A DNA stretch of 64,000 bases from an uncultured Gemmatimonadales bacterium (GTDB lineage Bacteria > Gemmatimonadota > Gemmatimonadetes > Gemmatimonadales > GWC2-71-9), in the NCBI GenBank assembly GCA_963716055.1, contig CAVQSR010000001.1, forward strand, positions 1,350,791 to 1,414,790, read 5' to 3'. The translations under genes were made by a program, and so were the position numbers. A model generated the notes under the pieces. That model searched no databases. It saw nothing but the letters and a program-made list of their open reading frames with translations, and had not been told where the DNA came from. Every line of letters begins with the position of its first letter. Positions within the stretch are counted from its first letter, which is position 1. Below are positions 1-12,462 of the stretch, one piece after another.

Positions 1-3000
1 CCGATTCACTCCCGCTCCACGACATACTGCGGCCAAACGCCGCCTGCGCGATATCTGTTCCAGAGTATCCCACGTCGACAGCTGCTTCAGCTTTCACAGC
101 CCAGTCGGCCGGATTTGGGTAACCAGCCAGCGGCGCGAGATGCAGCTCCTTCAAGGTGTCCATCTGGAGCAACTCTCTGAGGAGTGTCGCATCATTGCCT
201 ACCAAGTGTTGGACGATTTCTGAGGGAAATAGGTCCCCGGGCAGAGTCGCCATGAGTCGCCGCCGATCATCGACGCTCAACCGCTCTAGCGCCGCACTAA
301 TCGTTTCCTCACAGCGCCAGAGCTCGGAATTCTGATGTAACCGCTCGGCCAGCCACTCCATCGCTAGCGATGGGTCTGCCTGGAGAATCTCACGGAGAGA
401 CCACTCGTCACATGGAACGCGCAGGACTGCCCGGTGCCACACCTCGCGCAGAGACTCTCGTACGGTGCCTTTGGGATCAGCAGTCCATTCACCAATCGCC
501 GCTGCCGAAGCGATGAACGGGTCCCGGTGGGATAGGAGCCGCCGGACGACTGCTTCGGGAAGCTCCAAGCGTAGACAGAGACTCTCGATCCACTGCGCGC
601 CGCCATCCAGGCGCTCCAGTGCAAGGTCGATCAGCTCTTCTGGCGTTGCCTCCTCCTGTAGCACCGTGATCGCCGCCATAAGACGCTGTCGACCATCATC
701 AAGGCAGAGTAGGGCAAGCTGGTGACTCGTCGAAGCCTTATCTCGAAGTAATCGCCGTAGAAAGGGCTGCAGGAGGTCGGACGATGCGTTTCCCGCAAGG
801 AACGCCTCAAGCCAGGGTGCGCAGTCGTCCGTTTGATCCGCAATCACCTGGCACACATGCGGGGTCCACCGCGGCCACGGGTTGCTAATGAGGCGACCTT
901 CTTCCTCATGGCGAAGCATCTCGGGAACTGAGAGACCGGGGCCGGCCTGTGCCCATCGTGTCGCCAGTGCTGTCGCTCGCTCTCGCTGTTCCTCTTCCTC
1001 GGCTCGCCAGTCCCCCCGCTCCCGGTGAGGGAAGAGCGTCTCGAAGTCAGCGTCGACCGAGGCGGACAAGTCGACGCCGAATCGATCCGCGACTGAGGCT
1101 ACCCAGTGAAGAAACCCTGAGTGACCTTTGCCTGCATCCGCAAGATCGCGCAACATCTCGCCGGCAAAGGAGGCGGCTTCAGCGGCAAGGGGCTCCGGTA
1201 GCGGTCGAGACGGACGCGGATGATAGGCCCACGCAGACACAACGTCTTGCACGGGTTTCCAGTGCTGTACCGGCTCGTTGGCAAGTCGCCCGCGAACTGC
1301 TGGCCACATTGCACGAATCGCTCGCGCCTCCTCAAGAGACACGAACCCGAATGAGAGCGTGAGATTTCGGCCACTGCCCGGTTCCGGCTCGGTGCGCTCG
1401 AATTCCGGGGACAGTGCCAATACGAGCGCATGCAGCCCGACTGCCGGGTTCCGACCTTCGTCCAACCAGTGCTGCGCAGTCTTCAGCAGCTGGGTTCGCC
1501 GTTCGAGCACGGACGGCGTGCCGGGCACTGCCGCATGGATCCAGTCGGCAACCTGTCGCAGCGCATGATCAGGATGCGAATGCAGCGCGCGGTTGTCTCC
1601 AATGGCACCGCCCAGCAGTATCGGGAGCGCGACCTCAGGCGCCGTCTCCAGCATGGTCCGACCGATTCGTCCGACCCATTCCGGATGCTCCGTCGCAATC
1701 CAAGTCGTCTCACGTCGGCCGAGTCGGGAATACAAAGCCCACAGGTCATGGGAGCCGCAACGCTCAATAAGGCTCCGCACCAAGTCCTCTGAAACCCGGG
1801 CGCCTCGATGTTGAGCCCGGACAACCGTAAGTGTCAGTTCCTCCACGTTCGGTGCGACCGAAAGCAGGGGTTCGATCGGCAGGGACGTAGGACCAGCGAA
1901 GAACACGTCCCGCACCAGTACATCGCGCAATGCTGGCGGTCGCACAGTGAGTCGTTCTCGATCGACCTCAACCAATACGCCGCCGGCCGCAAGGTGCGAG
2001 ACCCGTTCGCGAAGTCTGGAGGCAGGCTCCTCCAAGTAATCCGCCACGGCCTGCATGGCCATCCCTGCATCGCCGCCCGCTGCAAACACGGCGAGCAACG
2101 TCTTCGTGTCACCGCCAATAAGTCGGTTGAACACAAAGGCGATCTCTTGCGCCAGAGCATCGCCTTGTGCTACAGCCCTCACGTCTCCTCGCAAGCACAG
2201 ATTGGAAAGTGTGACGGCTAGGCCCGGCTTCCCTTCAGCCTGATTCACAATCTCTTGGATCAGTCCGCGCGGGCCGCCGATGCCCGCGCCTCTCACAACT
2301 GCCGCAATCTCATCCTGAGACAATAGGTCCAACCCACGCACTGATGCGGATGGTACATCCAAAGCTCGCGCGACGTCATCGCGGCTCCCGGGCCACGAGT
2401 CGGCGATGATACGGAACTCACCCCCCATCTCGGATCGCAGGCGACGCAGCTGCGGCAGGCGGTCGAGTTGTAGATGCGCGTTCTCGACAACGAGTGCAGA
2501 AGGATTCTCGCGACGAATACCCGCGGCTATCTCACCCAAGTCGGGCGTATGAGCAAAGAGGCCTCCCTGCTCCTTGGCGAAGTGGTAAAGCAGGAATGTC
2601 TTCCCCACGCCCGGTTGTCCAACGACCAGGAGATCGCCCGGAGTGTGCACCAGCCATAGCATGTCCTGCGAGCGCCCAACCAACACATCACCGATCACGG
2701 ACCGCCCGGGCTGCGGCATCACAGACAGTGGCGGAGGCCCCCCGACGATCCCGAGCAACTCTTGGCACCACTCGGGACGGCGATACAGAAGGTCTGTGAA
2801 CGCAGGGCGATCGTGAATCTGTGTTAGTGTGAAGCCTAGATCGCGCGCCACCTTCTCGAGGGCACTACGCCGCCGGGCAGAAACCGATTGTGAGGTAGCG
2901 AATACGACTGCTCTACGTGTTCCACCACGGGCTAGGTACGACTGGAGATTCCGACGCAGATTGCGACCGAGATCGGCGCCGATCGTCGTGACCAGCGGAA

Positions 3001-3181
3001 ACGGAAGTCCTGCGCCATCGGCAATGGCGCCGTCCATACCCGCGTCGTCGCCACCGCGGATCGGCACGAGGGTGGGGTGTACAGCACCGAGGAGGTCGGC
3101 TGCACAGCGTTCGAACAGCTCGGGGTCGAGCTTGCCGCCTAGTCCTGCTTCGATGTCACGATAAAACGAGTCGCGTATCAT
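1..3181 (-). CDS. Large P-loop NTPase (AAA/STAND-like) with Mrr-like N-terminal domain and long alpha-helical C-terminal region; 3' end runs off the window (>=1060 aa seen)
   Basis: Absent from the ORF track because it has no in-window stop. My translation of the minus strand from ATG 3181..3179 stays open to position 2. All listed minus ORFs in 1-3180 have starts congruent to 0 mod 3; this frame is 1 mod 3. Begins MIRDSFYRDIEAGLGG. Walker A VVGQPGVGKTFLL (Lys codon 2602..2600). Walker-B-like ALVVENAH about 40 aa later. N-term LFERCAADLLG..IRGGDDAGMDG resembles the start of Mrr_cat. Confidence 0.75.
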   Translation of the reverse strand, partial: MIRDSFYRDIEAGLGGKLDPELFERCAADLLGAVHPTLVPIRGGDDAGMDGAIADGAGLPFPLVTTIGADLGRNLRRNLQSYLARGGTRRAVVFATSQSVSARRRSALEKVARDLGFTLTQIHDRPAFTDLLYRRPEWCQELLGIVGGPPPLSVMPQPGRSVIGDVLVGRSQDMLWLVHTPGDLLVVGQPGVGKTFLLYHFAKEQGGLFAHTPDLGEIAAGIRRENPSALVVENAHLQLDRLPQLRRLRSEMGGEFRIIADSWPGSRDDVARALDVPSASVRGLDLLSQDEIAAVVRGAGIGGPRGLIQEIVNQAEGKPGLAVTLSNLCLRGDVRAVAQGDALAQEIAFVFNRLIGGDTKTLLAVFAAGGDAGMAMQAVADYLEEPASRLRERVSHLAAGGVLVEVDRERLTVRPPALRDVLVRDVFFAGPTSLPIEPLLSVAPNVEELTLTVVRAQHRGARVSEDLVRSLIERCGSHDLWALYSRLGRRETTWIATEHPEWVGRIGRTMLETAPEVALPILLGGAIGDNRALHSHPDHALRQVADWIHAAVPGTPSVLERRTQLLKTAQHWLDEGRNPAVGLHALVLALSPEFERTEPEPGSGRNLTLSFGFVSLEEARAIRAMWPAVRGRLANEPVQHWKPVQDVVSAWAYHPRPSRPLPEPLAAEAASFAGEMLRDLADAGKGHSGFLHWVASVADRFGVDLSASVDADFETLFPHRERGDWRAEEEEQRERATALATRWAQAGPGLSVPEMLRHEEEGRLISNPWPRWTPHVCQVIADQTDDCAPWLEAFLAGNASSDLLQPFLRRLLRDKASTSHQLALLCLDDGRQRLMAAITVLQEEATPEELIDLALERLDGGAQWIESLCLRLELPEAVVRRLLSHRDPFIASAAAIGEWTADPKGTVRESLREVWHRAVLRVPCDEWSLREILQADPSLAMEWLAERLHQNSELWRCEETISAALERLSVDDRRRLMATLPGDLFPSEIVQHLVGNDATLLRELLQMDTLKELHLAPLAGYPNPADWAVKAEAAVDVGYSGTDIAQAAFGRSMSWSGSES

Positions 3182-3407
3182 TCTTCAGAGCCTACCACCA
3201 ATGTCGGCCGCTTGGAAACAGCACCGCGACGACGCTAGTAACACTAGCAGAGCCGCACCCTTAGTCTGCGAGGTACTGGATTACGACGGCTCCGTCACCA
3301 GATCCACGATCATTTTGACCCGGGATTCGATCTCCTGGCGAGTAGGCTTCACCGTCTGAAAAACGAAGTTGATCGTCTTGGCCTCGCTGCTCCCTCACGC
3401 GGTCGCG

Positions 3408-3572
3408 CTAATGCGTATTGAAGTCGTTGTATGGTGCCTTGAGCGCTAACGCGACGTAGATCTCGAGAAGGGCTTGCCGGCATGGATCCGGCTCTTCTAC
3501 AAAACGGATCTTCATCTTTCGGATGCGCTTCCTAGCGAGGCGGAACGCAGTGACGAAGCCGTCATCCGTCAT
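3408..3572 (-). CDS. Small hypothetical ORF (54 aa), start overlaps the stop of the upstream hydrolase gene
   Basis: Below the ORF-track size cutoff. ATG 3572..3570 lies in GATGACGGATGA and overlaps the hydrolase stop (3564..3562). Reads MTDDGFVTAFRLARKRIRKMKIRFVEEPDPCRQALLEIYVALALKAPYNDFNTH*. No recognisable domain. Confidence 0.2.
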   Translation of the reverse strand: MTDDGFVTAFRLARKRIRKMKIRFVEEPDPCRQALLEIYVALALKAPYNDFNTH

Positions 3573-5691
3573 CAAGTGGGCGCGTGAACCGTCCGCTCTG
3601 TAGCTCGCTCACAACAGTCGAGATCCCAGCTAGCATAAGAATTATTGTGAACACAAGTAGTAGGTAGTTGAAGAGCCAGTCGGACGGCAGCCCTTCAAGG
3701 AGCAGCCACGAAAGACCGAAGACCATCCACACAATCATCGCCATGAAAAAGAGAGTGACTCGCATCCTACCGCGCGGAAGAACCCCGTTGCCTCCAGGCC
3801 ACTGGTTGGCCAGGACCCGATCCTGCTCCGCGCGGACCCAGAATCGCCATAAGCTGCGCAGGAGGCCGCAACTGGCCACGTGGATGAGGGCGATCCCCCC
3901 CAGAAGTACCGCGACCCGGGTAGCCTTTGACGCGACAGCGGGTAGCCAGGCTGGCAGTTTGAGTGGTTGCGGCACCAATTCTGAATATTTGAACCATACA
4001 GAGGCGCCCACAGTTAGCCAGGCAATCCCGACAGCGCGGCGCGCCAGCCGCAGCCAACCGACCCGCCAGGCCGCGCGCGCATCCACAGCAGGCGGGACCG
4101 GTGAAAGCTCGTCCCTCCAGGGGCTCATCGCTGTCTCCGCGCACTCCCTTAGGACGCGCAGAACGAAGCCATCGAGATTGTCCCAATAGGCAGAGTGGTC
4201 GGCAAGCCGCGAGCCAAGGTTCCAGATCCGGACCGATTCCGGTACGCCTGGTTCGGTGGTTCTCATGGGACCGTTCGGCACGGGGTCATGCGACGCGTAG
4301 AGGTCGATCCACCGATGCAAGCCCAGGGGTCTTCGTACTTGCTCGACGAGGCTCTTCATGCGCTGAGAGAGGATCCGGTATGAGAATATCCCTAGCACTA
4401 CGAATGCTGCGGCGAGGAATGTTACGCGATTTAAAGGCGCGTGCTTGAAGGGCACCGAACGGCTAAGGGATCCCCATGCGACGAGTGTTCCGAGAAGGAA
4501 CCCCGAGAGTAGCAAGAAGGATAGCAATGCGCTCAGGCGTTGCAACCACGGCTTCGAGACCAGCAAGGCAGCCGACCGTGTCCCCAGGTTGGGCCACAGC
4601 TTCAAAGCTAGGTAGATAATCAATCCAACGAATACTGCGACAGCCGAAGGAGCAAGCGCGACTCCGACGGCCTTCAGAATGTCCAGGAAGGTGATCCTTT
4701 GAGCTATGACATCTACAAACAGCCAGAGAGACAATCCGATGGCGATGACGATGGCTATGGTAGCAAGCAATGTGGGGTTCTTCTCTACCTTGGCAAATCT
4801 GGCTGACAAAACTTTCAGACTGACGAGCAGCGCCGTGCCAGCGCCGAATGTCACTAGGCTGTCTGGAACGACACGTGGCCCCAGGGGATCTTGGCGTGTC
4901 GCCTCACTAGTTTCTGCCGCTGTCCCGAGGATCCCACCCAGCGCGTCCATCGCGACGGCCGCGCCTTGCGAATGGGCGACGACGACCGTGGTCTCGCAGC
5001 ACTGCTTCAGTCGTGCGAGTCCCCCAAGGACCCGCGTGCGAATCAGCGCGGCCCGGATCGGACTCTTGACGAATGCGAGGCTATCGCCGACGATCGCCGC
5101 GAACCCTCCCCTCGCAGCGAGGATCCGGGTCCGCAGTTGCGGGATAGGGAGCAGTCCAGCGACTAGTCCGATTGCCAAAATGGCGATGTACAAGGGCGCG
5201 AACAGCAGAGCTATGGGGAGCCAGGCGTAGGTTTTGACTACCGAGACGATTTTATTGCTGACCTTGCCTGACTCGGCTGCGGTCCAGTACCTCTGCGCAA
5301 TGCGGAGGGCGATGGACCATGGCAGCGCCGTCACGCTCCAGGAAACAAGCTCTCGGTAGCTCGGAGCCAGGAAGGCGTCCGCCCACCACCCCTCGCAAAG
5401 CAGCCAACTCTCCTGACTTTCGCCCGCTCGTAGCCGAACAACCGCTTCCGCGCGACCCTCGTCATCTGGACCAGCCTGCAACGCGGTCGCGCTAACCCTG
5501 TAGTTCGTCGCTCGGCCGATTGTCTGCAATAGTACGTCGCCCCACCGAACGAGGGTTTCCCCGGACCGCTGTGAACCGATCCCATGTACGAGGAGCACAC
5601 CGAGCTGGTATTCCTTCGGCGCTTGGAGGGAAACACCAGAGAGGTCGTGGCCCCCCTCACTGTGATCGAGCCGACGGGTTGGTGTCATCAC
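3562..5691 (-). CDS. Membrane-embedded alpha/beta-hydrolase (lipase/esterase-like serine hydrolase), 709 aa
   Basis: ORF-track protein. Oxyanion-type LLVHGIGS (res 33-40), nucleophile elbow VVVAHSQGA (Ser241), then DLYASHDPV (Asp469) and LADHSAYW (His499). Hydrophobic helices at about 155-182, 307-441 (four) and 550-697 (about four). GGGAGA lies 5 nt upstream of the ATG. Confidence 0.75.
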   Translation of the reverse strand: MMTPTRRLDHSEGGHDLSGVSLQAPKEYQLGVLLVHGIGSQRSGETLVRWGDVLLQTIGRATNYRVSATALQAGPDDEGRAEAVVRLRAGESQESWLLCEGWWADAFLAPSYRELVSWSVTALPWSIALRIAQRYWTAAESGKVSNKIVSVVKTYAWLPIALLFAPLYIAILAIGLVAGLLPIPQLRTRILAARGGFAAIVGDSLAFVKSPIRAALIRTRVLGGLARLKQCCETTVVVAHSQGAAVAMDALGGILGTAAETSEATRQDPLGPRVVPDSLVTFGAGTALLVSLKVLSARFAKVEKNPTLLATIAIVIAIGLSLWLFVDVIAQRITFLDILKAVGVALAPSAVAVFVGLIIYLALKLWPNLGTRSAALLVSKPWLQRLSALLSFLLLSGFLLGTLVAWGSLSRSVPFKHAPLNRVTFLAAAFVVLGIFSYRILSQRMKSLVEQVRRPLGLHRWIDLYASHDPVPNGPMRTTEPGVPESVRIWNLGSRLADHSAYWDNLDGFVLRVLRECAETAMSPWRDELSPVPPAVDARAAWRVGWLRLARRAVGIAWLTVGASVWFKYSELVPQPLKLPAWLPAVASKATRVAVLLGGIALIHVASCGLLRSLWRFWVRAEQDRVLANQWPGGNGVLPRGRMRVTLFFMAMIVWMVFGLSWLLLEGLPSDWLFNYLLLVFTIILMLAGISTVVSELQSGRFTRPLDDG

Positions 5692-5807
5692 AGTCTCCCA
5701 GTGAACCGTTTCAGGTGGTGTGACTCATTCAACTAGTTATTTGACGTCCGAATGACTGCGCCGAGCGCATCAGCATCTGCGTGCCATGGACCGCCGGTAT
5801 GGCCCGT

Positions 5808-6068
5808 TTACTCTGGTCGTTCGTCTGGTGCTTCTGTAGCCTCGGCGGACAGGTCCTCGCGGAGGAGTCTGATGATCCCGGGGACGTGCCGGCGAGCTGG
5901 CGCTGTCCGATTTCTCTCCCAGTTGTAGACCGTTGTCTTGTCCACGGCAAGTCGCTCGGCCACCTCGCGCTGCAGTAACCCCAATTCGAGCCGCCGCCAG
6001 TGGAGCCGGTCCCCAAGGGTCTTGATCTCCTTCGGATAGCCTACCGGCAGCGGCTTCCGTCCCTTCAA
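5808..6068 (-). CDS. XRE-family helix-turn-helix transcriptional regulator (about 86 aa from TTG start)
   Basis: The C-terminal 86 aa of ORF 5808..6188 read KEIKTLGDRLHWRRLELGLLQREVAERLAVDKTTVYNWERNRTAP, a classic HTH_3/XRE pattern. The track's N-terminal extension is R/G-rich and overlaps the comM fragment. In-frame TTG at 6068..6066 chosen as start (uncertain). Confidence 0.6.
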   Translation of the reverse strand: MKGRKPLPVGYPKEIKTLGDRLHWRRLELGLLQREVAERLAVDKTTVYNWERNRTAPARRHVPGIIRLLREDLSAEATEAPDERPE

Positions 6069-6097
6069 AGTGGCATGGCAAAAAGGCAACGCAGGAA

Positions 6098-6619
6098 TGT
6101 CCCTACGGCTACGCGGGCGACCCCCACCACGACTGCACCTGCGGCCCCCCGGACGTGCAGCGTTACCTCGCGCGCGTCTCGGGGCCATTGCTCGACCGCA
6201 TCGACATCCACCTGGAGGTGCCGGCTGTGAAGTACCGCGAGCTGTCCGAGCGCGCGGCCGGGGAGCCGAGTGCCGCGATCCGCGCGCGGGTGGACCGGGC
6301 GCGGACCACGCAGCGCGCGCGGTTCGCCGGGCGGCCCGGCGTGTTCGCCAACGCGCACATGGGGCCGCGCGACATCCGGGCCCACTGCCGCGTGAGCGAC
6401 GGCGCGGAGGCGTTGCTGCGGACGGCGATCACCCGGCTTGGCCTTTCAGCGCGAGCGTATCACCGCATTCTCAAGATCGCCCGCACGATCGCGGATCTGG
6501 ACGGCGCCGCGGGCCTGGAGCCGAAGCATGTGAGCGAGGCGATTCAATACCGCAGTCTGGACCGGCGGGGCGGAATGACACCGGGTCCCGTCGTTCCCAT
6601 TTCGACACACGGGCGGTAA
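6098..6619 (+). pseudogene. comM: 3' fragment (C-terminal about 173 aa) of comM/yifB Mg-chelatase-like ATPase, 5'-truncated
   Basis: In-frame reading from 6098 gives CPYGYAGDPHHDCTCGPPDVQRYLARVSGPLLDRIDIHLEVP...SARAYHRILKIARTIADLDG...HVSEAIQYRSLDR. This is the conserved Cys cluster and C-terminal domain of the ComM/YifB family. The approximately 330 N-terminal residues (Lon-like and AAA+ parts) are missing, and upstream sequence in that frame (WHGKKATQE) is unrelated. Confidence 0.8.
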
Positions 6620-7214: not shown

Positions 7215-8270
7215 TCAGGCGCGGCCGACCTCGGGCCTACCGCTCAGGTCGGGATGGTGATCTCGCAGCCACGCGACCGAGTCCGATAGCGTCACGCGGC
7301 CGTCGCGGCTGCGATAGTCGAGCTCCGCCGCGGCGTAGCGCGACGTCACGGCCCAGTGGTGCCGCGCCATCTCGATCACGACCGGGTCGGGCAGAGCGGA
7401 CGTCGGTCGCCCGACGAGCCGGCTGAGCCGGTCCGCCAGCGCCGCGAGCGCCCACGCGAGGTGGTAGGGCAGCACGCGCCGCGGCGCCGGCAGGCCCGCT
7501 ACGTCTCCCGCCAGGGCGAAGAACTCCTCCACGCCGCACACCGTGCCCGGCAGGTGGTACACCGGCCGGGCCGCGGGCCGCTCCATGATGCGCACGAGCG
7601 CCGCGGCCACGTCGCGCACGTCGGCGAAGTGCATCCCGCCGCGAATCACGAACGGGAGCCGGCCCCGCAGGTAGCGCACCAGGTGTCCCGTGGAGCGGAA
7701 GCGGTGGTCACCCGGTCCGAGCAGCATCGGTGGGCGCACGATCACGAGGTCCACGCCCAGCTCCTCCGCCAACGCCCGCGCCCCGCGCTCCGCCAGGATC
7801 TTCGAGTGGTAATAGGGCCAGCGGGCGACGCGCTCCTCGCAATAGGGCGCGTCCTCGTCCGCCCACTCGGCGGCGCCGCGAAAGCAGCCGACGGTCCCGG
7901 TGCTCGACACGACCACCAGCCGGCAGCGATGGACCGCGGCGAGGCGCACCGCCGCGCGCGTGCCCGCGACGTTGGTGTGGTACATGTCGCCCGGCTCGCG
8001 CCGGCTGTGGCGGACGACGGCCGCCAGGTGGAAGATGCCGCCGAGGCCGTGCACGCCGGCGTCCGCCGACCACGCCTCGGGTTCCGTGACGGATCCCGCG
8101 AGCACCGTGACCGCGGCGAGTGGTCGCGTCCACTCCATCCGGTGCCAGGCGTCGGGGGAGCGCGCGAGCGCGATCACGCGACGCTGAGGGTCGCCGCGCC
8201 GGAGGGTGAGCAGCAGGTGGCGTCCGAGGAAGCCACCGGCGCCGGTGACGAGATACGGACCGTCGGTCAG
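7215..8270 (-). CDS. NAD-dependent epimerase/dehydratase-family SDR (candidate acyl/alkyl-DHAP reductase)
   Basis: C-terminal 351 aa of ORF 7215..9689: YLVTGAGGFLGRHL (Rossmann GxxGxxG), YYHSKILAE (YxxxK). The upstream part of that ORF is R/P/A junk antisense-overlapping the next gene. Start is uncertain: only CTG 8270 sits next to the upstream stop, with no ATG/GTG/TTG nearby. Confidence 0.75.
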   Translation of the reverse strand: MTDGPYLVTGAGGFLGRHLLLTLRRGDPQRRVIALARSPDAWHRMEWTRPLAAVTVLAGSVTEPEAWSADAGVHGLGGIFHLAAVVRHSRREPGDMYHTNVAGTRAAVRLAAVHRCRLVVVSSTGTVGCFRGAAEWADEDAPYCEERVARWPYYHSKILAERGARALAEELGVDLVIVRPPMLLGPGDHRFRSTGHLVRYLRGRLPFVIRGGMHFADVRDVAAALVRIMERPAARPVYHLPGTVCGVEEFFALAGDVAGLPAPRRVLPYHLAWALAALADRLSRLVGRPTSALPDPVVIEMARHHWAVTSRYAAAELDYRSRDGRVTLSDSVAWLRDHHPDLSGRPEVGRA

Positions 8271-10630
8271 GCCACGGGCTCCGGGGCGCGCCCGGGATCG
8301 CCCACGGCATGGCCGGGCGCGGCGCGCAGCGCCCCGAGCCGCTGCTCGAGCGGCTCGTCCCCCGCACCCGTCTCGAACAGGTGGGCGAACTGGTTCCCGA
8401 GCGAGCGCGCGATCTCCGGATCGAGGTCGGGGGGCAGACTCAACGCGCTTTCGAGCACCCGCCCGCCGCGCTGCTCGATCGCGCGGCGGAGCCATGCCGC
8501 ATCGACGCCGGGGACCGGATGCCGGTCGAGGAAGCCTCGCAGGTGGTACGTCGTCGTGACGGTGGCGCGCGCCAGGCGCGCGAGCACCTCCTGGCTCGCG
8601 GCGTAGACGTCGTCCGCTGGGTCGAGCGGAATCGGAGCGCCGCAGGCGATGTGGATCCGTCCCAGATCGATCCGGCCGAGGAACACGCGCACCGTCCAGG
8701 CGAGCAGCGCGCCGAGGCGCATCTTCGGCTTCGGCGCCCCGGCCAGCTCGCGGGCGAAGCTCGCTTCTTCGGGCACGCGCTCGTAGGACAGCGCCACCGG
8801 GAGCAGCGCGCAGGGCTCGCCCGTGGCTTGCACCGAGCGCAGCAGGCCGCGCTTGGGCGGCAGGAACCGGCGCGAGCGGCTCCGCTGTCCCTCGATGAAC
8901 ACCTCGAGCGCCCGGCGCTCGCGCACGAGCGCGCGCACCCGGGCCGTCACGGCCGGGTCCTCGCGCCCCTCCCCCCGGGTCACGTAGAACGCCTGCAGGC
9001 GGGTGGCGAGCCACCCCACGACGGGAATACGCGCGAAGTCGACGGCCGCGGCCACGTAGGGAATGGGGACGCCGAGGTCGCGCCGCGCGAAGAAGAGATA
9101 GGAGCACAGGATGAAATCGAGATAGCTGCGGTGCGACGGCACGATCACGAGCGGGCAGTCCGGGGGCACGGCCCGGCGGGCTGCTTCGAACGACGGCAGG
9201 TCCACCGTGATTCGCTCGCAGCAGCGGCGCAGCACCTTCGTCACGAGCCAGGCCGCGGCGCGGAGCAGGCCGGTCCCGTCGGGTTGCCGTCGGGCCCAGC
9301 GCAGGTCGCCGCCGTGGCCCGGATGGCGCCGGCCGGCGAGGCACCACTGCGTGTCGTCGCGCCGCAGAAGGTACCGATACACCCCGCGGCTCACCGTGGC
9401 GACGTACCCCCCGGGATCGAACCCCGCGTCGAGCGGTGCCGCCGAGCGGAAGTCGAAGGTATGCCGGGTGAAGTAGCGAAACACGCGGTTGGCGTGGGTG
9501 AGGCGCGCCCGCAGCTGGGCGGCCGCGCGGCGCGCGCGCGGCGTGCGCATCCCGGCCGCCGCGATGGGCAGCCGGTGGTGCATCGCGTCCGCGACGCCGA
9601 AGGCCAATCCCGGCGGCCCGAGGTAGCGCATGGCGGGCGGCCGCTCGACGGGATGCACGGCGAAGAAATCCTGGATGCGCGTCCAGCATTCCCGCACGGT
9701 GGCGCTGCGCGCGACGCCCGCCACCGCGTGCTGAATCAACGGCTCGCTCCCGGCGGGAGGCGCTCCGTTACAGGCGAGCAGGATGCGGGTGGCCACTTCG
9801 TCCACCGGGATCAGGTCGAGGCGCGCGTCGGGGTCGCCCACCACGGCGCGCAGGTGCCCCGATCCCAGCAGCATCACGAAGGTGGCGAACCCGGCCGCGC
9901 TGTCGATCCACCCGGGAAAGGGATAGCGCCAGCTCGCCGAAATGATGCTGGGGCGCACGATCGCGAGCGGCACCCCGCCGCTCCGCGCCACCAGCAGATG
10001 CTCGGCCAGGGACTTGGTGAACGTGTAGGTGTTCGGGTGACCGGAGCGCCGGAACAGCTCGGCGGCGCGGGCGCCGCCGTTCAGGATGTCCCCGTAGAGC
10101 TCCTCGGCGGGCGCCGGGAGCGGCGCGAGCGTTTCGCCGGCGGACGTGTGCGCCCCGGCGGCGGGCGTCACGTACGCGGTCGACACGTACACGAGCCGCT
10201 CGAGTCCGGCGCACGCCCGCGCCAACTCGAGCAGGTTGAGGCTCGCGGCCACGTTCCACCGCGCGGCGTCGGCCAGCGGATGATCGAACTCCACCGAGGC
10301 AGCGGCGTGGAGCGCGTGGGTGGTCGTGCCCGTGATCGCGTCCCGCGCCGCGGGGTCGAGAGCGAGACCCGGGTGCTCGAGGGTGCCCTCGACCACCCGA
10401 ACCAACCGGGTCCAGTCCCGCGGCAGCCCGACGAAGCACGCCGAGGGGGCCACCTCGCGGCGGAACCGCTCGTCGGCGCCGCGCGCACCCTTGCGGCGGA
10501 TCACCACGGTCACCTGGGTGGTCTCGAGCTCGTCGCGCCGGCGCAGTAGCTCCTCGAGCAGCACCTTTCCCAGGAAGCCCGTGACGCCCGTCAGCAGATA
10601 GGCCCGCCCCGCGCCTCCCCCCTCCCGCAT
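8267..10630 (-). CDS. Fusion protein: fatty acyl-CoA reductase (FAR) domain + PlsB/GNPAT-type acyltransferase (DHAPAT-like) domain, 787 aa
   Basis: From internal ATG 10630 (MREGGGAGRAYLLTGVTGFLGKVLLEELL). FAR motifs TGxTGFLGK and NTYTFTKSLAE. C-terminal half has acyltransferase blocks VPSHRSYLDFIL (HxxxxD) and FIEGQRSRSRRFLPPKRG. Confidence 0.85.
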   Translation of the reverse strand: MREGGGAGRAYLLTGVTGFLGKVLLEELLRRRDELETTQVTVVIRRKGARGADERFRREVAPSACFVGLPRDWTRLVRVVEGTLEHPGLALDPAARDAITGTTTHALHAAASVEFDHPLADAARWNVAASLNLLELARACAGLERLVYVSTAYVTPAAGAHTSAGETLAPLPAPAEELYGDILNGGARAAELFRRSGHPNTYTFTKSLAEHLLVARSGGVPLAIVRPSIISASWRYPFPGWIDSAAGFATFVMLLGSGHLRAVVGDPDARLDLIPVDEVATRILLACNGAPPAGSEPLIQHAVAGVARSATVRECWTRIQDFFAVHPVERPPAMRYLGPPGLAFGVADAMHHRLPIAAAGMRTPRARRAAAQLRARLTHANRVFRYFTRHTFDFRSAAPLDAGFDPGGYVATVSRGVYRYLLRRDDTQWCLAGRRHPGHGGDLRWARRQPDGTGLLRAAAWLVTKVLRRCCERITVDLPSFEAARRAVPPDCPLVIVPSHRSYLDFILCSYLFFARRDLGVPIPYVAAAVDFARIPVVGWLATRLQAFYVTRGEGREDPAVTARVRALVRERRALEVFIEGQRSRSRRFLPPKRGLLRSVQATGEPCALLPVALSYERVPEEASFARELAGAPKPKMRLGALLAWTVRVFLGRIDLGRIHIACGAPIPLDPADDVYAASQEVLARLARATVTTTYHLRGFLDRHPVPGVDAAWLRRAIEQRGGRVLESALSLPPDLDPEIARSLGNQFAHLFETGAGDEPLEQRLGALRAAPGHAVGDPGRAPEPVA

Positions 10631-10646
10631 GCGATTCACGGCGCTC

Positions 10647-12462
10647 TCAGGACCGGAGCCGCGCGGCCGGCGGTCCGGCCACCAGCTGATTGCCGGCTCC
10701 GAAGACGTTGGCCGGATCGATCGCCCGCTTGACCTCCGCGGCCCACTCGAGGGCGGCGGGCGACATGATGCGGGGCAGGAACGCACGCCGCAGCTTGCCG
10801 ACGCCGTGGTGGTGCGAGAGCGATCCGCCGGAGTGCAGAATCTCGTCGCGAGCCGACCGCTCGAGTTCGGCGAAGACCGCGCTCGGCTGCTCCACTCCCT
10901 TGTGGTAGAACGCCAGGTAGAAATAGACGCACACGCCCGTCTGGTAGACCTGCGTCACCCGGCAGCTGATGAAAGGTGTACCGGGCAGGCCGCGCGCCGC
11001 GTGCTCGGCGGCGATCCGCCGCTTCACGTTGTCGCACAACGACAATGCCTGGCTCCACGGCACCGACGTCTCGAACGACTCGCCCAGGATGTAATGCCGC
11101 ATGACGAAGTCGCGGATGTAGGCGATGCCGAAGGTCAGCTGGTACCCGCGGCGCCCGTTCTCCGCGCCCGCGCCCATGCCGCCGTGGCGCCGCGCGAGGC
11201 GGCTCACGGCGCGCCGCTCGGTCCGGACCTCGTCGGCGGCCGCCTTCGAAGACCAGCGTGCAGGCGACCATGCGGTCCGGATCGAAGCCGCGCAGCCGCG
11301 TGACGAAGAACTTCTCGGCCTGCCGCTTGAGCGCCGCCAGGCCCTCGGCCGGGCTTGAGCGTCATGCTCAGCTGGAACTGGAGGTTGTCCACCAGCCGCA
11401 CGCTGGCGGGCGGCGTCGCCTCCCGCGTGAGATCGTACAGAAAGCCGACGCCCGCCTCGAAGGACGGGAAGATGAGCGAGTCGTAGCGCGTGACCTCGGG
11501 CAGCGGGAAGATCTTCACCACCGCCCGGGTGATGATGCCGAGGGTGCCCTCGGAGCCGAAGATCCAGCGCCGCGCGTCGACGCCGACCGACTCGCGCGGC
11601 GCGACCGCGGGTCGCGACACCGGGCCGCGCGCCGTGACCACGTCGACGTCCAGCACCAGGTCCTCGATGTTGCCGTAGCGGTTCTTCTTCATGCCGCTGC
11701 AGTGGGTCGCGATCCAGCCGCCCAGCGTCGAGAACTCGACGCTGTCGGGCTCGTGGCCCAGGGTGAAGCCGTGGGCCCCGAGCTGCTCCTCGATGTGGCG
11801 CCCCACGGCGCCCGCCTCGATGCAGGCCATGAGGTTCGTCGGGTCGATCCACAGGATCCGGTTCAGCCGTTCGCATGTCCACCGACACGATCGTCCGCTC
11901 CTCGTCGCTCGGGCAGCGGAGCGCGTCGGTGACGTTCGTGCCGCCGCCGTAGGGCACGAGGCAGACGTCGTGGCGCGCCGCCGCCTCCACCAGCGCGACG
12001 ACGTCGTCCTCGGTGCGGGGGTACACCACGAGATCGGGCAGCCGTTCGAGGCGCCCGTACTTGATGAGCGTACATCTCCTCCAGCGTGTGGCCGTGGCCG
12101 TGGCGCAGGCGGATCGCGGCGTCGGTGGTGACGGCGTCCGCGGTCAGGAAGGTCCGCAGCTCCGCCACGAACAGCGGGTGCGCGCGCGGCGCGGGCACGT
12201 CCGGGGGATACGCGGAGTCGTGCGTGTCGCGGGGATCGAGCGCGACCCCGAGGACGCGGCTGGTCCACGGGAGCAGATCGGGCAATTCGGCGCCGCTCAA
12301 GGGGTAGCGGGAGCCCGTCAGCGTGACGTGCCCGTTGGGCAGCACCGTGAATGCCGAGTCGCGAAAGCCCCACACGTCGAGGCTTTCCTCGTCGCCGGCG
12401 TGGTGGGGCGGATCGCCCGGCACGATGCGGTCATCGGCGTCGAGCGCGAAGCGGGGGGCCAT
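10647..12462 (-). pseudogene. Alkyldihydroxyacetonephosphate synthase (AGPS, FAD-linked oxidase) interrupted by four frameshifts
   Basis: Homology runs through four track ORFs in three frames. 12462->~12066: WGFRDSAF..GHTLEEMY. ~12066->~11872: IKYGRLERLPDLVVYPRTEDDVV..PYGGGTNV. ~11870->~11350: LNRILWIDPTNLMACIEAG..GWIATHCSGMKKNRYGNIEDL. ~11350->~11240: EGLAALKRQAEKFFVTRLRGFDPDRMVACTLVFEG. ~11240->10647: AADEVR..GYQLTFGIAYIRDF..HHHGVGK. Length is 1816 nt, not a multiple of 3. Confidence 0.8.

What the first reader, a model, noticed from the sequence alone, without database searches (positions are those of the whole stretch)
1..3181. Largest gene of the island is invisible in the supplied ORF track
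Translating the minus strand from ATG 3181 gives an uninterrupted, protein-like reading frame all the way to position 2 (>=1060 codons). The track omits it because there is no in-window stop. The approximately 100-aa ORFs listed at 364-2490 are all off-frame shadows of it. The first ~140 aa follow the Mrr_cat pattern (FE..aa.LL....v....gGDdaGmDG ... vvFATSqsvS..a...l.....g..l..I), but the position expected to hold the (E/Q)xK reads PLVTTIG. A minimal P-loop follows (GQPGVGKT, then ALVVENAH where AAA_22/TniB-like proteins have hhhhDEaH). After that come more than 800 aa of helical, HEAT/TPR-like sequence. A nuclease-like head with a non-canonical catalytic position and a DE->EN Walker B would be unusual for both known Avs proteins and Mrr-AAA fusions.
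Basis: seen in the sequence. Interest (0 to 1): 0.8.

Follow-up and report, generated by a model that had tools for sequence, protein, structure and literature searches.

The report
Uncharacterised Avs-like STAND defence gene

Summary
The minus-strand frame from ATG 3181 to position 2 has 1060 codons and no stop; the other five frames have 18-35 stops. An identical database protein shows the full length is 1111 aa, so only 51 residues lie off-window.

The gene belongs to a family of at least 481-851 cluster representatives, about 1110 aa each, all annotated as hypothetical and spread over many uncultured bacterial phyla.

An AlphaFold model (pLDDT 90) shows four parts:
- an Mrr-like PD-(D/E)xK-fold head;
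- a STAND NTPase module made of P-loop, helical and winged-helix domains;
- a conserved GxP motif within that module;
- an alpha-solenoid of about 680 aa.

The best solved-structure match is Avs3, and the head matches EcoT38I, MspJI and the Avs4 nuclease. There is no conserved partner gene. Neighbours are often defence or mobile-element genes, and some homologues carry a two-helix transmembrane head instead.

Two claims separate. The missing (E/Q)xK is family-wide (0 of 238), while D46, D50, T66 and N74 are invariant, so the site is constrained rather than decayed. The Walker B "EN" occurs in 1 of 238 members (DD in 235), so it is private to this copy.

Verdict: a new variant of a known kind, of moderate interest.

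The parts
2..3181 (-). Coding sequence for residues 1-1060 of a 1111-aa protein. The stop codon and last 51 residues lie beyond window position 1.
   Evidence: No stop in 1060 codons. 100% identical to the 1111-aa P0001. More than 365 homologues of about 1110 aa.
2747..3181 (-). N-terminal head, residues 1-145: Mrr-like PD-(D/E)xK fold (alpha-alpha-beta-beta-beta-alpha-beta-alpha-beta). Presumed effector domain.
   Evidence: AF2 secondary structure. Foldseek top hits are EcoT38I, MspJI and the Avs4 nuclease. Mrr_cat hit by 20 of 37 and PADLOC REase head by 32 of 37. hhalign against Mrr gives E 3.5e-4. Replaced by a 2-TM head in L016, L021 and L025.
3029..3055 (-). GGDDAGMDG (residues 43-51), aligned to Mrr GTGDGGIDG. 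D46 and D50 are the invariant acidic residues.
2978..2998 (-). PLVTTIG (residues 62-68) on strand beta3, where Mrr has VYVQAKRW. The family consensus is P-L-[VI]-[CTSAV]-T-[TIV]-x, with no (E/Q)xK in any member.
2282..2671 (-). P-loop nucleotide-binding domain of the STAND module (residues 171-300).
   Evidence: AF2 strand/helix pattern. Weak Pfam hits to AAA_16, AAA_22, nSTAND3 and NACHT. Foldseek hits to Avs3, Cdc6 and RuvB.
2597..2620 (-). Walker A motif GQPGVGKT (residues 188-195). Canonical.
   Evidence: GK[TS] in 238 of 238 members; coordinates.
2474..2497 (-). Walker B region ALVVENAH (residues 229-236). E233-N234 replaces the family's D-D.
   Evidence: DD in 235 of 238, with ED, DE and EN once each; EN only in this copy.
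2162..2281 (-). Helical domain (residues 301-340) with the GxP-type motif EGKPGLA at 316-322 (window 2216-2236).
   Evidence: Q314, P319, G320 and A322 are invariant; helices in the model.
1892..2161 (-). Winged-helix domain (residues 341-430), ending in the conserved V-R-P-x-A-L-R motif.
   Evidence: Helix-helix-helix plus beta-hairpin in the model. Weak HTH_24 and MarR_2 hits at about 362-407 in relatives. P415 and L418 invariant.
2..1891 (-). C-terminal alpha-solenoid (residues 431-1060 in the window, continuing to 1111). Presumed sensor. Contains a beta-hairpin insert at residues 593-613 (window 1343-1405).
   Evidence: AF2 model, pLDDT mostly above 90. Foldseek hits to importins, CAND1 and PP2A-A at E 2e-4 to 1e-3. 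No Pfam repeat hit.
3182..3561 (-). 380-bp upstream intergenic region. A GGTGGTAGG Shine-Dalgarno-like stretch lies 8-16 nt before the ATG.
   Evidence: Read directly from the sequence. No minus-strand promoter-like site was found by the consensus scan.

Best explanation
The gene encodes a single-protein, NLR-like antiviral STAND NTPase (Avs-like) carried on a horizontally acquired island.

By analogy with Avs3, Avs4 and Avs7, the proposed mechanism has three steps:
1. The roughly 680-aa C-terminal alpha-solenoid binds a phage protein.
2. This releases autoinhibition and drives nucleotide-dependent oligomerisation of the NBD, helical and winged-helix module.
3. Oligomerisation brings the N-terminal Mrr-fold heads together to execute the response, most likely DNA damage and abortive infection.

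Shown here: the gene, the three-part architecture, the fold relationships, the head swapping, the lack of a partner gene and the defence or mobile-element context.

Inferred: the ligand, the oligomerisation and the head's activity.

The head is a non-canonical Mrr derivative. It keeps the helix-1 Glu and the GxDxGxDG acidic residues but has T66 where Mrr has its catalytic Q, and no lysine, in every member. Its chemistry is therefore either a variant of PD-(D/E)xK catalysis or not nucleolytic.

This particular copy also carries Walker B E233-N234 instead of D-D. That should preserve nucleotide binding (Walker A is intact) but impair hydrolysis.
For: Gene reality:
- The frame is open and unique.
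- The full length is 1111 aa.

Family:
- Over 365 homologues at 38-57% identity were found by the word-index search.
- The exhaustive N-domain HMM search found 851 representatives, 481 of them at E<=1e-30.
- Members occur in Chloroflexota, Planctomycetota, Acidobacteriota, Verrucomicrobiota, Gemmatimonadota, Myxococcota and Saccharimonadales.

Architecture:
- The AF2 model has pLDDT 90.4 and pTM 0.79.
- The best PDB match is Avs3-terminase 8dgc at E 4.7e-9, followed by HEAT/ARM solenoids, Cdc6 and RuvB.
- The GxP motif and winged helix are conserved.
- The head matches EcoT38I, MspJI and Avs4, Mrr_cat in 20 of 37, the PADLOC Mrr head in 32 of 37, and an Mrr profile at E 3.5e-4.

Effector logic:
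- The same body carries a 2-TM head in L016, L021 and L025, and another head in L039.

Context:
- No conserved neighbour was found in 48 loci.
- Neighbours include Hma, RmrA, IetA, R-M, CBASS, MADS, PDC and PD-T4-6 genes, AbiEii and PIN toxins, and integrases.
- The closest relatives sit beside recombinases, integrases or Rep genes or a TIR_2 gene.
- In its own genome the gene sits between an HTH gene and a Shedu SduA_C gene, in a 60-62% GC patch of a 70-77% GC genome.

Hydrolysis is not essential in known Avs proteins:
Against: - No PADLOC Avs/AVAST model and no Pfam STAND model reaches threshold.
- The head lacks the defining (E/Q)xK, so nuclease activity is unproven.
- N-domain fold matches are modest: E 2e-3 to 3e-2, none at or below 1e-3. 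hhalign probability is only 37%.
- TM-scores of the full-length match to Avs3 are low (0.21 and 0.14), as expected for flexible multidomain proteins, but this weakens the comparison.
- No experiment exists, and the phage trigger is unknown.
- The defence context is frequent but not universal; several loci have housekeeping neighbours.
- This copy deviates at 13 of 197 highly conserved columns against a median of 7, so it may not be fully functional.
Confidence: 0.68

Rival explanations
1. The Mrr-fold head is catalytically dead across the whole family. It serves as a DNA-binding, oligomerisation or regulatory module, so the protein acts by something other than DNA cleavage, for example sequestration, scaffolding or recruiting a host factor.
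For: No member has (E/Q)xK on beta3 (0 of 238), and no basic residue is conserved at the aligned K position, which is G, S, A or Q. Inactive PD-(D/E)xK domains are known in other proteins, such as EME1 in MUS81-EME1, which appears in the hit list.
Against: The head is the most conserved part of the protein. D46, T66 and N74 are invariant, and D50, D4 and E24 nearly so. That pattern of acidic and polar invariants is what a metal-dependent active site looks like, not a relaxed domain. The head is swapped for a transmembrane module in some relatives, as effectors are.
Confidence: 0.25
2. The window copy is a degenerating or already inactivated allele: an intact reading frame that no longer works. 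This applies to this copy only and is compatible with the family being functional.
For: Walker B EN occurs in 1 of 238 members. The copy deviates at 13 of 197 columns that are at least 90% conserved, against a median of 7, ranking 105 of 120. The changes include polar positions R32G, T67I, N107A, D233E, D234N and R289Q. It is cargo in a foreign island.
Against: - The 1111-codon frame is intact, with no frameshift or stop.
- All invariant head residues, Walker A, GxP and the WHD motifs are kept.
- I67, G32 and Q289 occur in other members too.
- E at the first Walker B position is conservative, and N at the second gives the classical hydrolysis-deficient but nucleotide-binding type.
- Working Avs proteins tolerate loss of hydrolysis.
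Confidence: 0.3
3. It is a non-defence STAND or AAA+ protein, for example a MalT/AfsR-type regulator or an ORC/Cdc6-like factor, that happens to sit in an island.
For: It has a winged helix with weak MarR/HTH_24 hits. Cdc6 and RuvB are among the fold hits. Some loci have only housekeeping neighbours. Defence and non-defence STAND clades are interspersed (PMC13581612).
Against: - There is no DNA-binding output domain of the LuxR or SARP type.
- The heads are REase-fold or transmembrane.
- The phyletic spread is patchy and cross-phylum, and close relatives sit on integrative elements.
- Neighbours are frequently defence genes.
- The best structural match is Avs3.
Confidence: 0.06

Closest known systems
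Avs3/Avs4 (antiviral STAND, AVAST types 3 and 4; PDB 8dgc and 8dgf)
   Same: It is a single polypeptide with the order N-terminal nuclease-fold head, STAND NTPase, long alpha-helical sensor. Avs3 is the best full-length fold match (E 4.7e-9), and the Avs4 nuclease head is among the top five N-domain matches. Heads are swappable and the context is a defence island.
   Different: No sequence-level match to any PADLOC Avs model. At 1111 aa it is much shorter than the 1534-aa and 2028-aa chains of 8dgf and 8dgc. The head lacks the (E/Q)xK that, to my knowledge, Mrr-type Avs4 heads have. The sensor has no detectable TPR signature. The trigger is unknown.
Mrr / Pfam Mrr_cat (PF04471), type IV restriction endonuclease catalytic domain
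   Same: The same fold order, and the motifs FE (helix 1), GxDxGxDG and hhhTTS align one to one. Mrr_cat is the only Pfam family hit repeatedly by N-domains.
   Different: All hits are below the gathering score (best E 0.0027). The catalytic Q-x-K of Mrr (invariant Q70-A71-K72 in alignment A5) is replaced by T66-T67-x. There is no winged-helix N-terminal DNA reader as in EcoKMrr.
Mrr head of Mrr-TIR-APAZ proteins of short-pAgo (SPARTA-clade S2A) systems
   Same: This is the best sequence-level match of the head: PADLOC Aga_REase-TIR-PNTD1-PNTD2, hit by 32 of 37 members, best 6e-7, at profile positions about 8-124. It is annotated as an Mrr domain in PMC9097488.
   Different: That head is fused to TIR-APAZ and works with an Argonaute; this one is fused to a STAND NTPase. 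Whether those heads keep QxK was not examined.
nSTAND3 / nSTAND_NTPase5 / AAA_16 / NACHT (Pfam STAND NTPase families)
   Same: These give sub-threshold hits over the P-loop to strand 4 region in many members: AAA_16 26 of 44, nSTAND3 14 of 44, NACHT 5, NPHP3_N 4 and nSTAND5 3.
   Different: None reaches its gathering score, so the NTPase is a separate and so far unmodelled STAND lineage.
KpAvs8 (Avs with degenerate Walker motifs)
   Same: It is a precedent for an Avs sensor whose Walker A and B motifs are degenerate and which is presumed to lack ATPase activity (PMC13581612, Extended Data Fig. 11 legend).
   Different: In the window copy only Walker B is altered and Walker A is intact, and the change is private to one copy rather than a feature of a lineage.

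Membership tests
STAND NTPase superfamily | Walker A P-loop GxxxxGK[ST] | tested here: met
   GQPGVGKT at residues 188-195. GK[TS] is present in 238 of 238 members.
STAND NTPase superfamily | Walker B hhhhD[DE] | tested here: not met
   The window copy has VVEN. The family itself meets it, with DD in 235 of 238 members.
STAND NTPase superfamily | Tripartite NBD, helical domain (with GxP motif) and winged-helix domain | tested here: met
   The AF2 model shows the expected element order. EG[RK]PGLA has invariant P319 and G320. There is a wHTH with a beta-hairpin at 341-430, with weak HTH_24 and MarR_2 hits. The top fold hit is Avs3.
STAND NTPase superfamily | Match to a curated STAND sequence model at its threshold | tested here: not met
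   AAA_16, nSTAND3, nSTAND_NTPase5, NACHT and NPHP3_N all score below their gathering scores.
Avs (antiviral STAND) as a functional class | Effector, STAND and large sensor in a single polypeptide, with modular heads | tested here: met
   Architecture. The head is replaced by a 2-TM module in L016, L021 and L025, and by another head in L039. There is no conserved partner gene.
Avs (antiviral STAND) as a functional class | Association with defence islands or mobile elements | tested here: met
   PADLOC and Pfam hits among 137 neighbour ORFs of 46 loci. Further context. This is qualitative only; no formal enrichment statistic was computed.
Avs (antiviral STAND) as a functional class | Protection against phage, triggered by binding a phage protein | not testable with these tools
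   This needs plaque assays and co-expression screens.
Named Avs families in PADLOC v2 (AVAST types I-V) | Sequence match to the family HMM | tested here: not met
   No Avs/AVAST model is hit at E<=1 by the 1060-aa protein.
STAND clades and sensor clusters of Lee et al. 2026 (PMC13581612) | Listed in Supplementary Tables 2-5 | not testable with these tools
   The supplementary files are not held. No paper text mentions the family's NCBI accessions.
Mrr_cat / PD-(D/E)xK nuclease | alpha-beta-beta-beta-alpha-beta core fold | tested here: met
   Model elements are H20-31, E38-40, E51-53, E61-66, H71-84 and E91-96. The top five Foldseek hits are all PD-(D/E)xK enzymes, but with E 2e-3 to 3e-2.
Mrr_cat / PD-(D/E)xK nuclease | Acidic residues: Glu on helix 1 and Asp at beta2 (the GxDxGxDG motif in Mrr) | tested here: met
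   E24 in 230 of 238 (Q in 6), D46 in 236 of 236 and D50 in 235 of 236. These align to the FE and GDGGIDG motifs of Mrr.
Mrr_cat / PD-(D/E)xK nuclease | (D/E/Q)xK on strand beta3 | tested here: not met
   0 of 238 members have [EQ]xK at residues 61-68. T66 is invariant and lies opposite Mrr's Q, and G, S, A or Q lies opposite the K.
Mrr_cat / PD-(D/E)xK nuclease | Pfam gathering score for Mrr_cat | tested here: not met
   20 of 37 N-domains hit at E<=1 with a best E of 0.0027. The window copy itself does not hit.
Mrr_cat / PD-(D/E)xK nuclease | Metal-dependent nuclease activity | not testable with these tools
   This needs biochemistry.
HEAT/TPR repeat proteins | Sequence repeat signature (Pfam TPR, HEAT or ARM models) | tested here: not met
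   No repeat family appears among hits at E<=0.01 in 44 full-length members.
HEAT/TPR repeat proteins | Alpha-solenoid of paired helices | tested here: met
   There are more than 40 helices from residue 431 to 1109. Foldseek hits importins, CAND1 and PP2A-A at E 2e-4 to 1e-3.
AAA_22 / TniB-like ATPases | Match across the AAA_22 domain | tested here: inconclusive
   31 of 44 members hit at E<=0.01, but the listed best stretches cover only profile positions about 5-36 of 130, which is the P-loop. The window copy scores 15.7 bits against a cut-off of 27.

The most novel reading that the evidence does not exclude
The family's Mrr-derived head is an active effector with a new catalytic arrangement. 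It has an invariant D4/E24/D46/D50/T66/N74 constellation and no lysine in cis. Either the site works without the canonical Lys, or it is deliberately incomplete and is completed in trans by a basic residue of a neighbouring protomer only after sensor-driven oligomerisation. Candidates for that residue are R3 (R or K in 205 of 238), R32, and R89/R90. This would be a built-in safety catch for a toxic nuclease. The window copy's E-N Walker B would then be a natural hydrolysis-deficient allele of such a switch.
Probability: 0.22. Interest if true: 0.6.

Novelty: new variant of a known kind. Interest (0 to 1): 0.45.

Why it matters
Antiviral STAND proteins are the bacterial counterparts of NLR immune receptors, and at least 90 families are now recognised (PMC13581612). 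This gene points to a sizeable family that has no Pfam, NCBIfam or PADLOC model and no paper text mentioning its accessions. The family has 481-851 representative clusters at 50% identity and is confined to uncultured phyla.

Its head is the useful part. It is clearly derived from Mrr, yet it has replaced the catalytic QxK by an invariant Thr in every member while keeping the acidic residues. That makes it a clean natural test of whether PD-(D/E)xK effectors can work without the lysine, or of how an Avs head can act without cleaving DNA.

The Walker B change that drew attention is a private substitution. On its own it matters little, except as a ready-made hydrolysis-deficient allele for experiments.

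Tried and rejected
- Profile HMM searches of PDB sequences found only P-loop matches for the full-length profile and nothing meaningful for the N-domain.
- A conserved partner gene was sought by all-against-all BLAST of ORFs from 50 loci. The recurrent clusters were shadow ORFs inside the gene, ABC ATPases at variable distance, and an AbiEii-like ORF abutting the start in six Thermoanaerobaculia loci only.
- The 709-aa upstream neighbour was suspected as a partner because P0005's locus has a 712-aa ORF upstream. BLASTP shows no similarity, and it has no homologue in any family locus.
- A TIR reading of the head was suggested by hits to PADLOC 'Aga_TIR-PNTD1-PNTD2'. It was rejected because those hits fall on profile positions 7-104, the same N-terminal stretch as in the REase-TIR model.
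- Apparent long extensions in L013 (1842 aa) and L023 (1371 aa) are Arg/Pro-rich read-through artefacts of my crude ORF calling in high-GC DNA.
- Searches of annotated plasmids and phages found nothing.
- The supplementary clade tables of the 2026 STAND survey are not held, so catalogue membership is undecided.
- The host organism could not be named. The sources give no title for the 2.47-Mb contig, and the genome-collection scan did not return it.
- Three-dimensional inspection of the active site was not possible because model coordinates are not exposed.


Full report
**1. Observation**

Translating the minus strand from 3181 to 2 gives 1060 codons with no stop. My own six-frame count gives 0 stops in that frame and 18-35 in each of the other five. 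From the local base composition, the chance of 1060 stop-free codons is about 1e-14. GC by codon position is 0.73/0.48/0.64, a coding-type asymmetry.

The ORF lister does not report ORFs that run off an end, which explains the gap in the track. All 17 ORFs it lists between 364 and 3164 are on the + strand or in the other minus frame, so they are shadows.

The start is right. ATG 3181 is preceded by GGTGGTAGG, and more than 100 homologues start with the same MIRDPFY. A protein 100% identical over all 1060 residues (P0001) is 1111 aa long, so only 51 residues are off-window.

**2. The family**

The word-index search returned 365 relatives. The best 120 are nearly all 1105-1135 aa, 38-57% identical, and named "hypothetical" or not at all. 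An exhaustive HMM search with the first 172 residues found 851 representative clusters at E<=1e-3 and 481 at E<=1e-30. The best 150 all had the same architecture or were fragments of it.

A scan of one genome per species found 48 loci. They come from Chloroflexota, Planctomycetota, Acidobacteriota, Verrucomicrobiota, Gemmatimonadota, Myxococcota, Bipolaricaulota, Rhodothermales, Bacteriovoracaceae and Saccharimonadales, and almost all are metagenome-assembled genomes. Nothing was found in annotated plasmids or phages.

Pfam, NCBIfam and PADLOC give only sub-threshold P-loop hits for the window protein, plus a weak PADLOC REase-head hit.

**3. Architecture**

AlphaFold2 with a 115-sequence alignment gives a confident model (pLDDT 90.4, pTM 0.79). 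The domains are:

| Residues | Feature |
|---|---|
| 1-145 | alpha-alpha-beta-beta-beta-alpha-beta-alpha-beta head |
| 146-170 | Pro-rich linker |
| 171-300 | P-loop domain |
| 301-340 | helical domain with the conserved EG[RK]PGLA (GxP-type) motif |
| 341-430 | winged helix |
| 431-1111 | alpha-solenoid with one beta-hairpin insert at 593-613 |

Foldseek against the PDB puts Avs3 bound to phage terminase first (8dgc, E 4.7e-9). HEAT/ARM solenoids (RanBP5, CAND1, PP2A-A, importins) follow, along with the AAA+ cores with winged helices of Cdc6 and RuvB.

Across 44 diverse members the Pfam majority vote is AAA_22 31, AAA_16 26, AAA_33 19, nSTAND3 14, NACHT 5, NPHP3_N 4 and nSTAND_NTPase5 3. None consistently reaches threshold, and no TPR/HEAT model hits at all. 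I read this as a STAND module from a lineage without a curated model, attached to a solenoid whose repeats are not detectable by sequence.

**4. The head**

A separate model of residues 1-172 (pLDDT 82.7) matches EcoT38I, MspJI and the nuclease head of Avs4 (8dgf_B) as its top five chains, with probability 0.97-1.0 but E only 2e-3 to 3e-2.

At the sequence level:
- Mrr_cat is the only Pfam family hit repeatedly, by 20 of 37 N-domains with a best E of 0.0027.
- A PADLOC model of the Mrr head of Mrr-TIR-APAZ proteins is hit by 32 of 37, best 6e-7.
- Those hits fall on the extreme N-terminus of the PADLOC models, not on the TIR part.
- The domain in question is called Mrr in PMC9097488.

hhalign against E. 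coli Mrr alone gives E 0.0035. Against a 38-sequence Mrr profile it gives E 3.5e-4, probability 37%, over 82 columns.

Both alignments pair FE with FE, GGxDaGMDG with GsGDgGIDG, and ATSq with TTSg. Both put PLVxTT on Mrr's VYVQAKRW. The profile alignment sets the invariant T66 opposite the catalytic Q, and a variable G, S, A or Q residue opposite the K.

The relationship to Mrr is distant, and the exact register on beta3 is uncertain by one or two residues.

**5. Family feature versus private feature**

| Position | Count among 238 full-length members |
|---|---|
| [EQ]xK at residues 61-68 | none |
| D46 | 236 of 236 |
| T66 | 236 of 236 |
| N74 | 236 of 236 |
| D50 | 235 |
| D4 | 231 |
| E24 | 230 (Q in 6) |
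| Position 67 | T 214, I 13, V 5 |
| Walker A GK[TS] | all |
| Walker B | DD 235, ED 1, DE 1, EN 1 |

The 49 more divergent genomic copies (25-52% identity) show the same picture in the head. The head is therefore under strong constraint. Its site is non-canonical, not decayed, and the window's I67 is within the family's range.

The single EN is the window copy. Its nearest relative (57% identity) has DD.

The window copy departs from the consensus at 13 of 197 highly conserved columns, against a median of 7. The departures include R32G, N107A and R289Q. This suggests somewhat relaxed constraint, but the frame is intact and every invariant residue outside Walker B is kept.

**6. Context**

Window positions 1-6000 have 60-62% GC, against 70-77% for the remaining 58 kb.

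A contig from another assembly of the same sequence shows the gene order HTH_3 (86 aa), a 708-aa protein, this gene, then a 412-aa SduA_C (Shedu) protein 140 bp downstream.

Across 50 loci no neighbour is conserved. The window's 709-aa neighbour has no homologue near any family member.

Among 137 neighbour ORFs from 46 loci, PADLOC finds the following:
- HmaC, RmrA, IetA and DUF499, twice each;
- a type II R-M pair;
- CBASS parts (cyclase, 2TM effector, TRIP13, CapH);
- PDC-M05, PDC-S11, mad6 and PD-T4-6.

Pfam adds three integrases, AbiEii, PIN and Schlafen-AlbA_2, mixed with housekeeping genes.

The closest relatives lie next to mobile-element or defence genes:
- a serine recombinase plus a primase;
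- a TIR_2 protein;
- a tyrosine integrase with an excisionase-like HTH, a Rep_1 replicase and a methylase.

Three Chloroflexota homologues carry a two-helix transmembrane head on the same body, and one Phycisphaerales homologue carries a different helical head. That is how effector domains behave in Avs-type proteins.

**7. Mechanism**

The best-supported reading is a single-gene Avs-like receptor, in which:
- the solenoid binds a phage protein;
- the STAND module changes its nucleotide state and oligomerises;
- the heads are brought together and act.

Only the architecture, the fold relationships, the head swapping and the context are shown here. Ligand, oligomerisation and activity are inferred from Avs3, Avs4 and Avs7.

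For the window copy, E233 can plausibly still coordinate Mg2+, and N234 removes the second acidic residue. From general P-loop knowledge, that predicts nucleotide binding without efficient hydrolysis. This need not abolish function. [quoted passage not shown]

**8. Comparison and novelty**

The protein works like an Avs, but it is not a member of any Avs family with a model in PADLOC v2. Its head fails the defining (E/Q)xK test for Mrr_cat.

A 2026 survey defines 589 STAND clades and used Mrr-headed proteins among its seeds. The family may be in its tables, which I could not read. No paper text mentions the family's accessions.

I rate it a new variant of a known kind. The architecture is ordinary for the field. 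The invariant lysine-less Mrr head is the unusual part, and the Walker B change is a one-off.

**9. Limits**

- Fold searches were restricted to Foldseek against the PDB.
- Model coordinates could not be inspected.
- The defence association is qualitative.
- Nothing here is experimental.

Noticed in passing
window 1-6000 versus 6001-64000: There is a sharp GC step, from 60-62% in the first 6 kb to 70-77% elsewhere. This marks the right-hand edge of a horizontally acquired island that continues off the left end of the window. No tRNA gene occurs anywhere in the window.
   Followed up: partly
window 3562-5691 (-): A 709-aa ORF immediately upstream has no Pfam or PADLOC hit. By eye it has a lipase/esterase-like N-terminal part (LLVHGIGSQRSG, VVAHSQGAA) followed by many hydrophobic, transmembrane-like segments. 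It is not found next to any other family member.
   Followed up: partly
window 5808-6188 (-): A small XRE-type HTH_3/HTH_31 protein, called as 86 aa on the Logan contig. It has weak PADLOC hits to mad1, capH and RmrA regulators, and may be a regulator of the island's cargo.
   Followed up: no
Just outside the window, beyond position 1 (Logan contig of ERR12037370): A 412-aa SduA_C (Shedu nuclease) gene lies 140 bp downstream of the STAND gene on the same strand. Its DNA could not be retrieved, so it could not be compared with the 414-aa ORF downstream in L002.
   Followed up: partly
L016 9803-12922, L021 9788-12928, L025 9716-12352: These Chloroflexota homologues have the Mrr-like head replaced by about 90 aa with two predicted transmembrane helices on an otherwise collinear NTPase and solenoid body. 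L039 (9701-12964) has a third, helical head.
   Followed up: partly
L011 9384-10001, L020 9417-10007, L023 3493-4134, L027 4856-5692, L032 9306-9977, L048 9516-10001: In six Thermoanaerobaculia/Acidobacteriota loci, an ORF of about 200 aa ends at or overlaps the start codon of the family gene. It appears nucleotidyltransferase-like; two neighbour ORFs in the batch scan hit AbiEii. It may be a clade-specific partner or a toxin-antitoxin neighbour.
   Followed up: partly
L035 9989-13477; L045 9674-10819 and 10750-13356: L035 has both a deviant Walker A (GVGKRS) and a deviant Walker B (ED). L045 is split into two overlapping ORFs, which suggests a frameshift or pseudogene. Some copies of the family therefore do decay.
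   Followed up: no
L017 9800-13372: The open frame extends about 67 codons upstream of the usual MIRDPFY start and encodes an XRE-like HTH (LGLTQKEFAETVG...SRWE). This is either a fused regulator or an in-frame upstream gene.
   Followed up: no
L052/L053 and L055/L056: The closest relatives of the window protein are cargo of small integrative elements. One carries a serine recombinase, a DnaG-like primase and a metallophosphatase. The other carries a tyrosine integrase, an HTH_17 excisionase-like gene, a Rep_1/IS91-type replicase and a C5 methylase, inserted next to groEL.
   Followed up: partly
window 7215-10786 (-): Long overlapping minus-strand ORFs of 824 and 839 aa carry NAD_binding_4/epimerase and acyltransferase domains, resembling a fatty-acyl reductase plus acyltransferase. 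An equally long + strand shadow ORF (8309-10549) has no domain hit. This illustrates how unreliable ORF length is in this 74% GC DNA.
   Followed up: no
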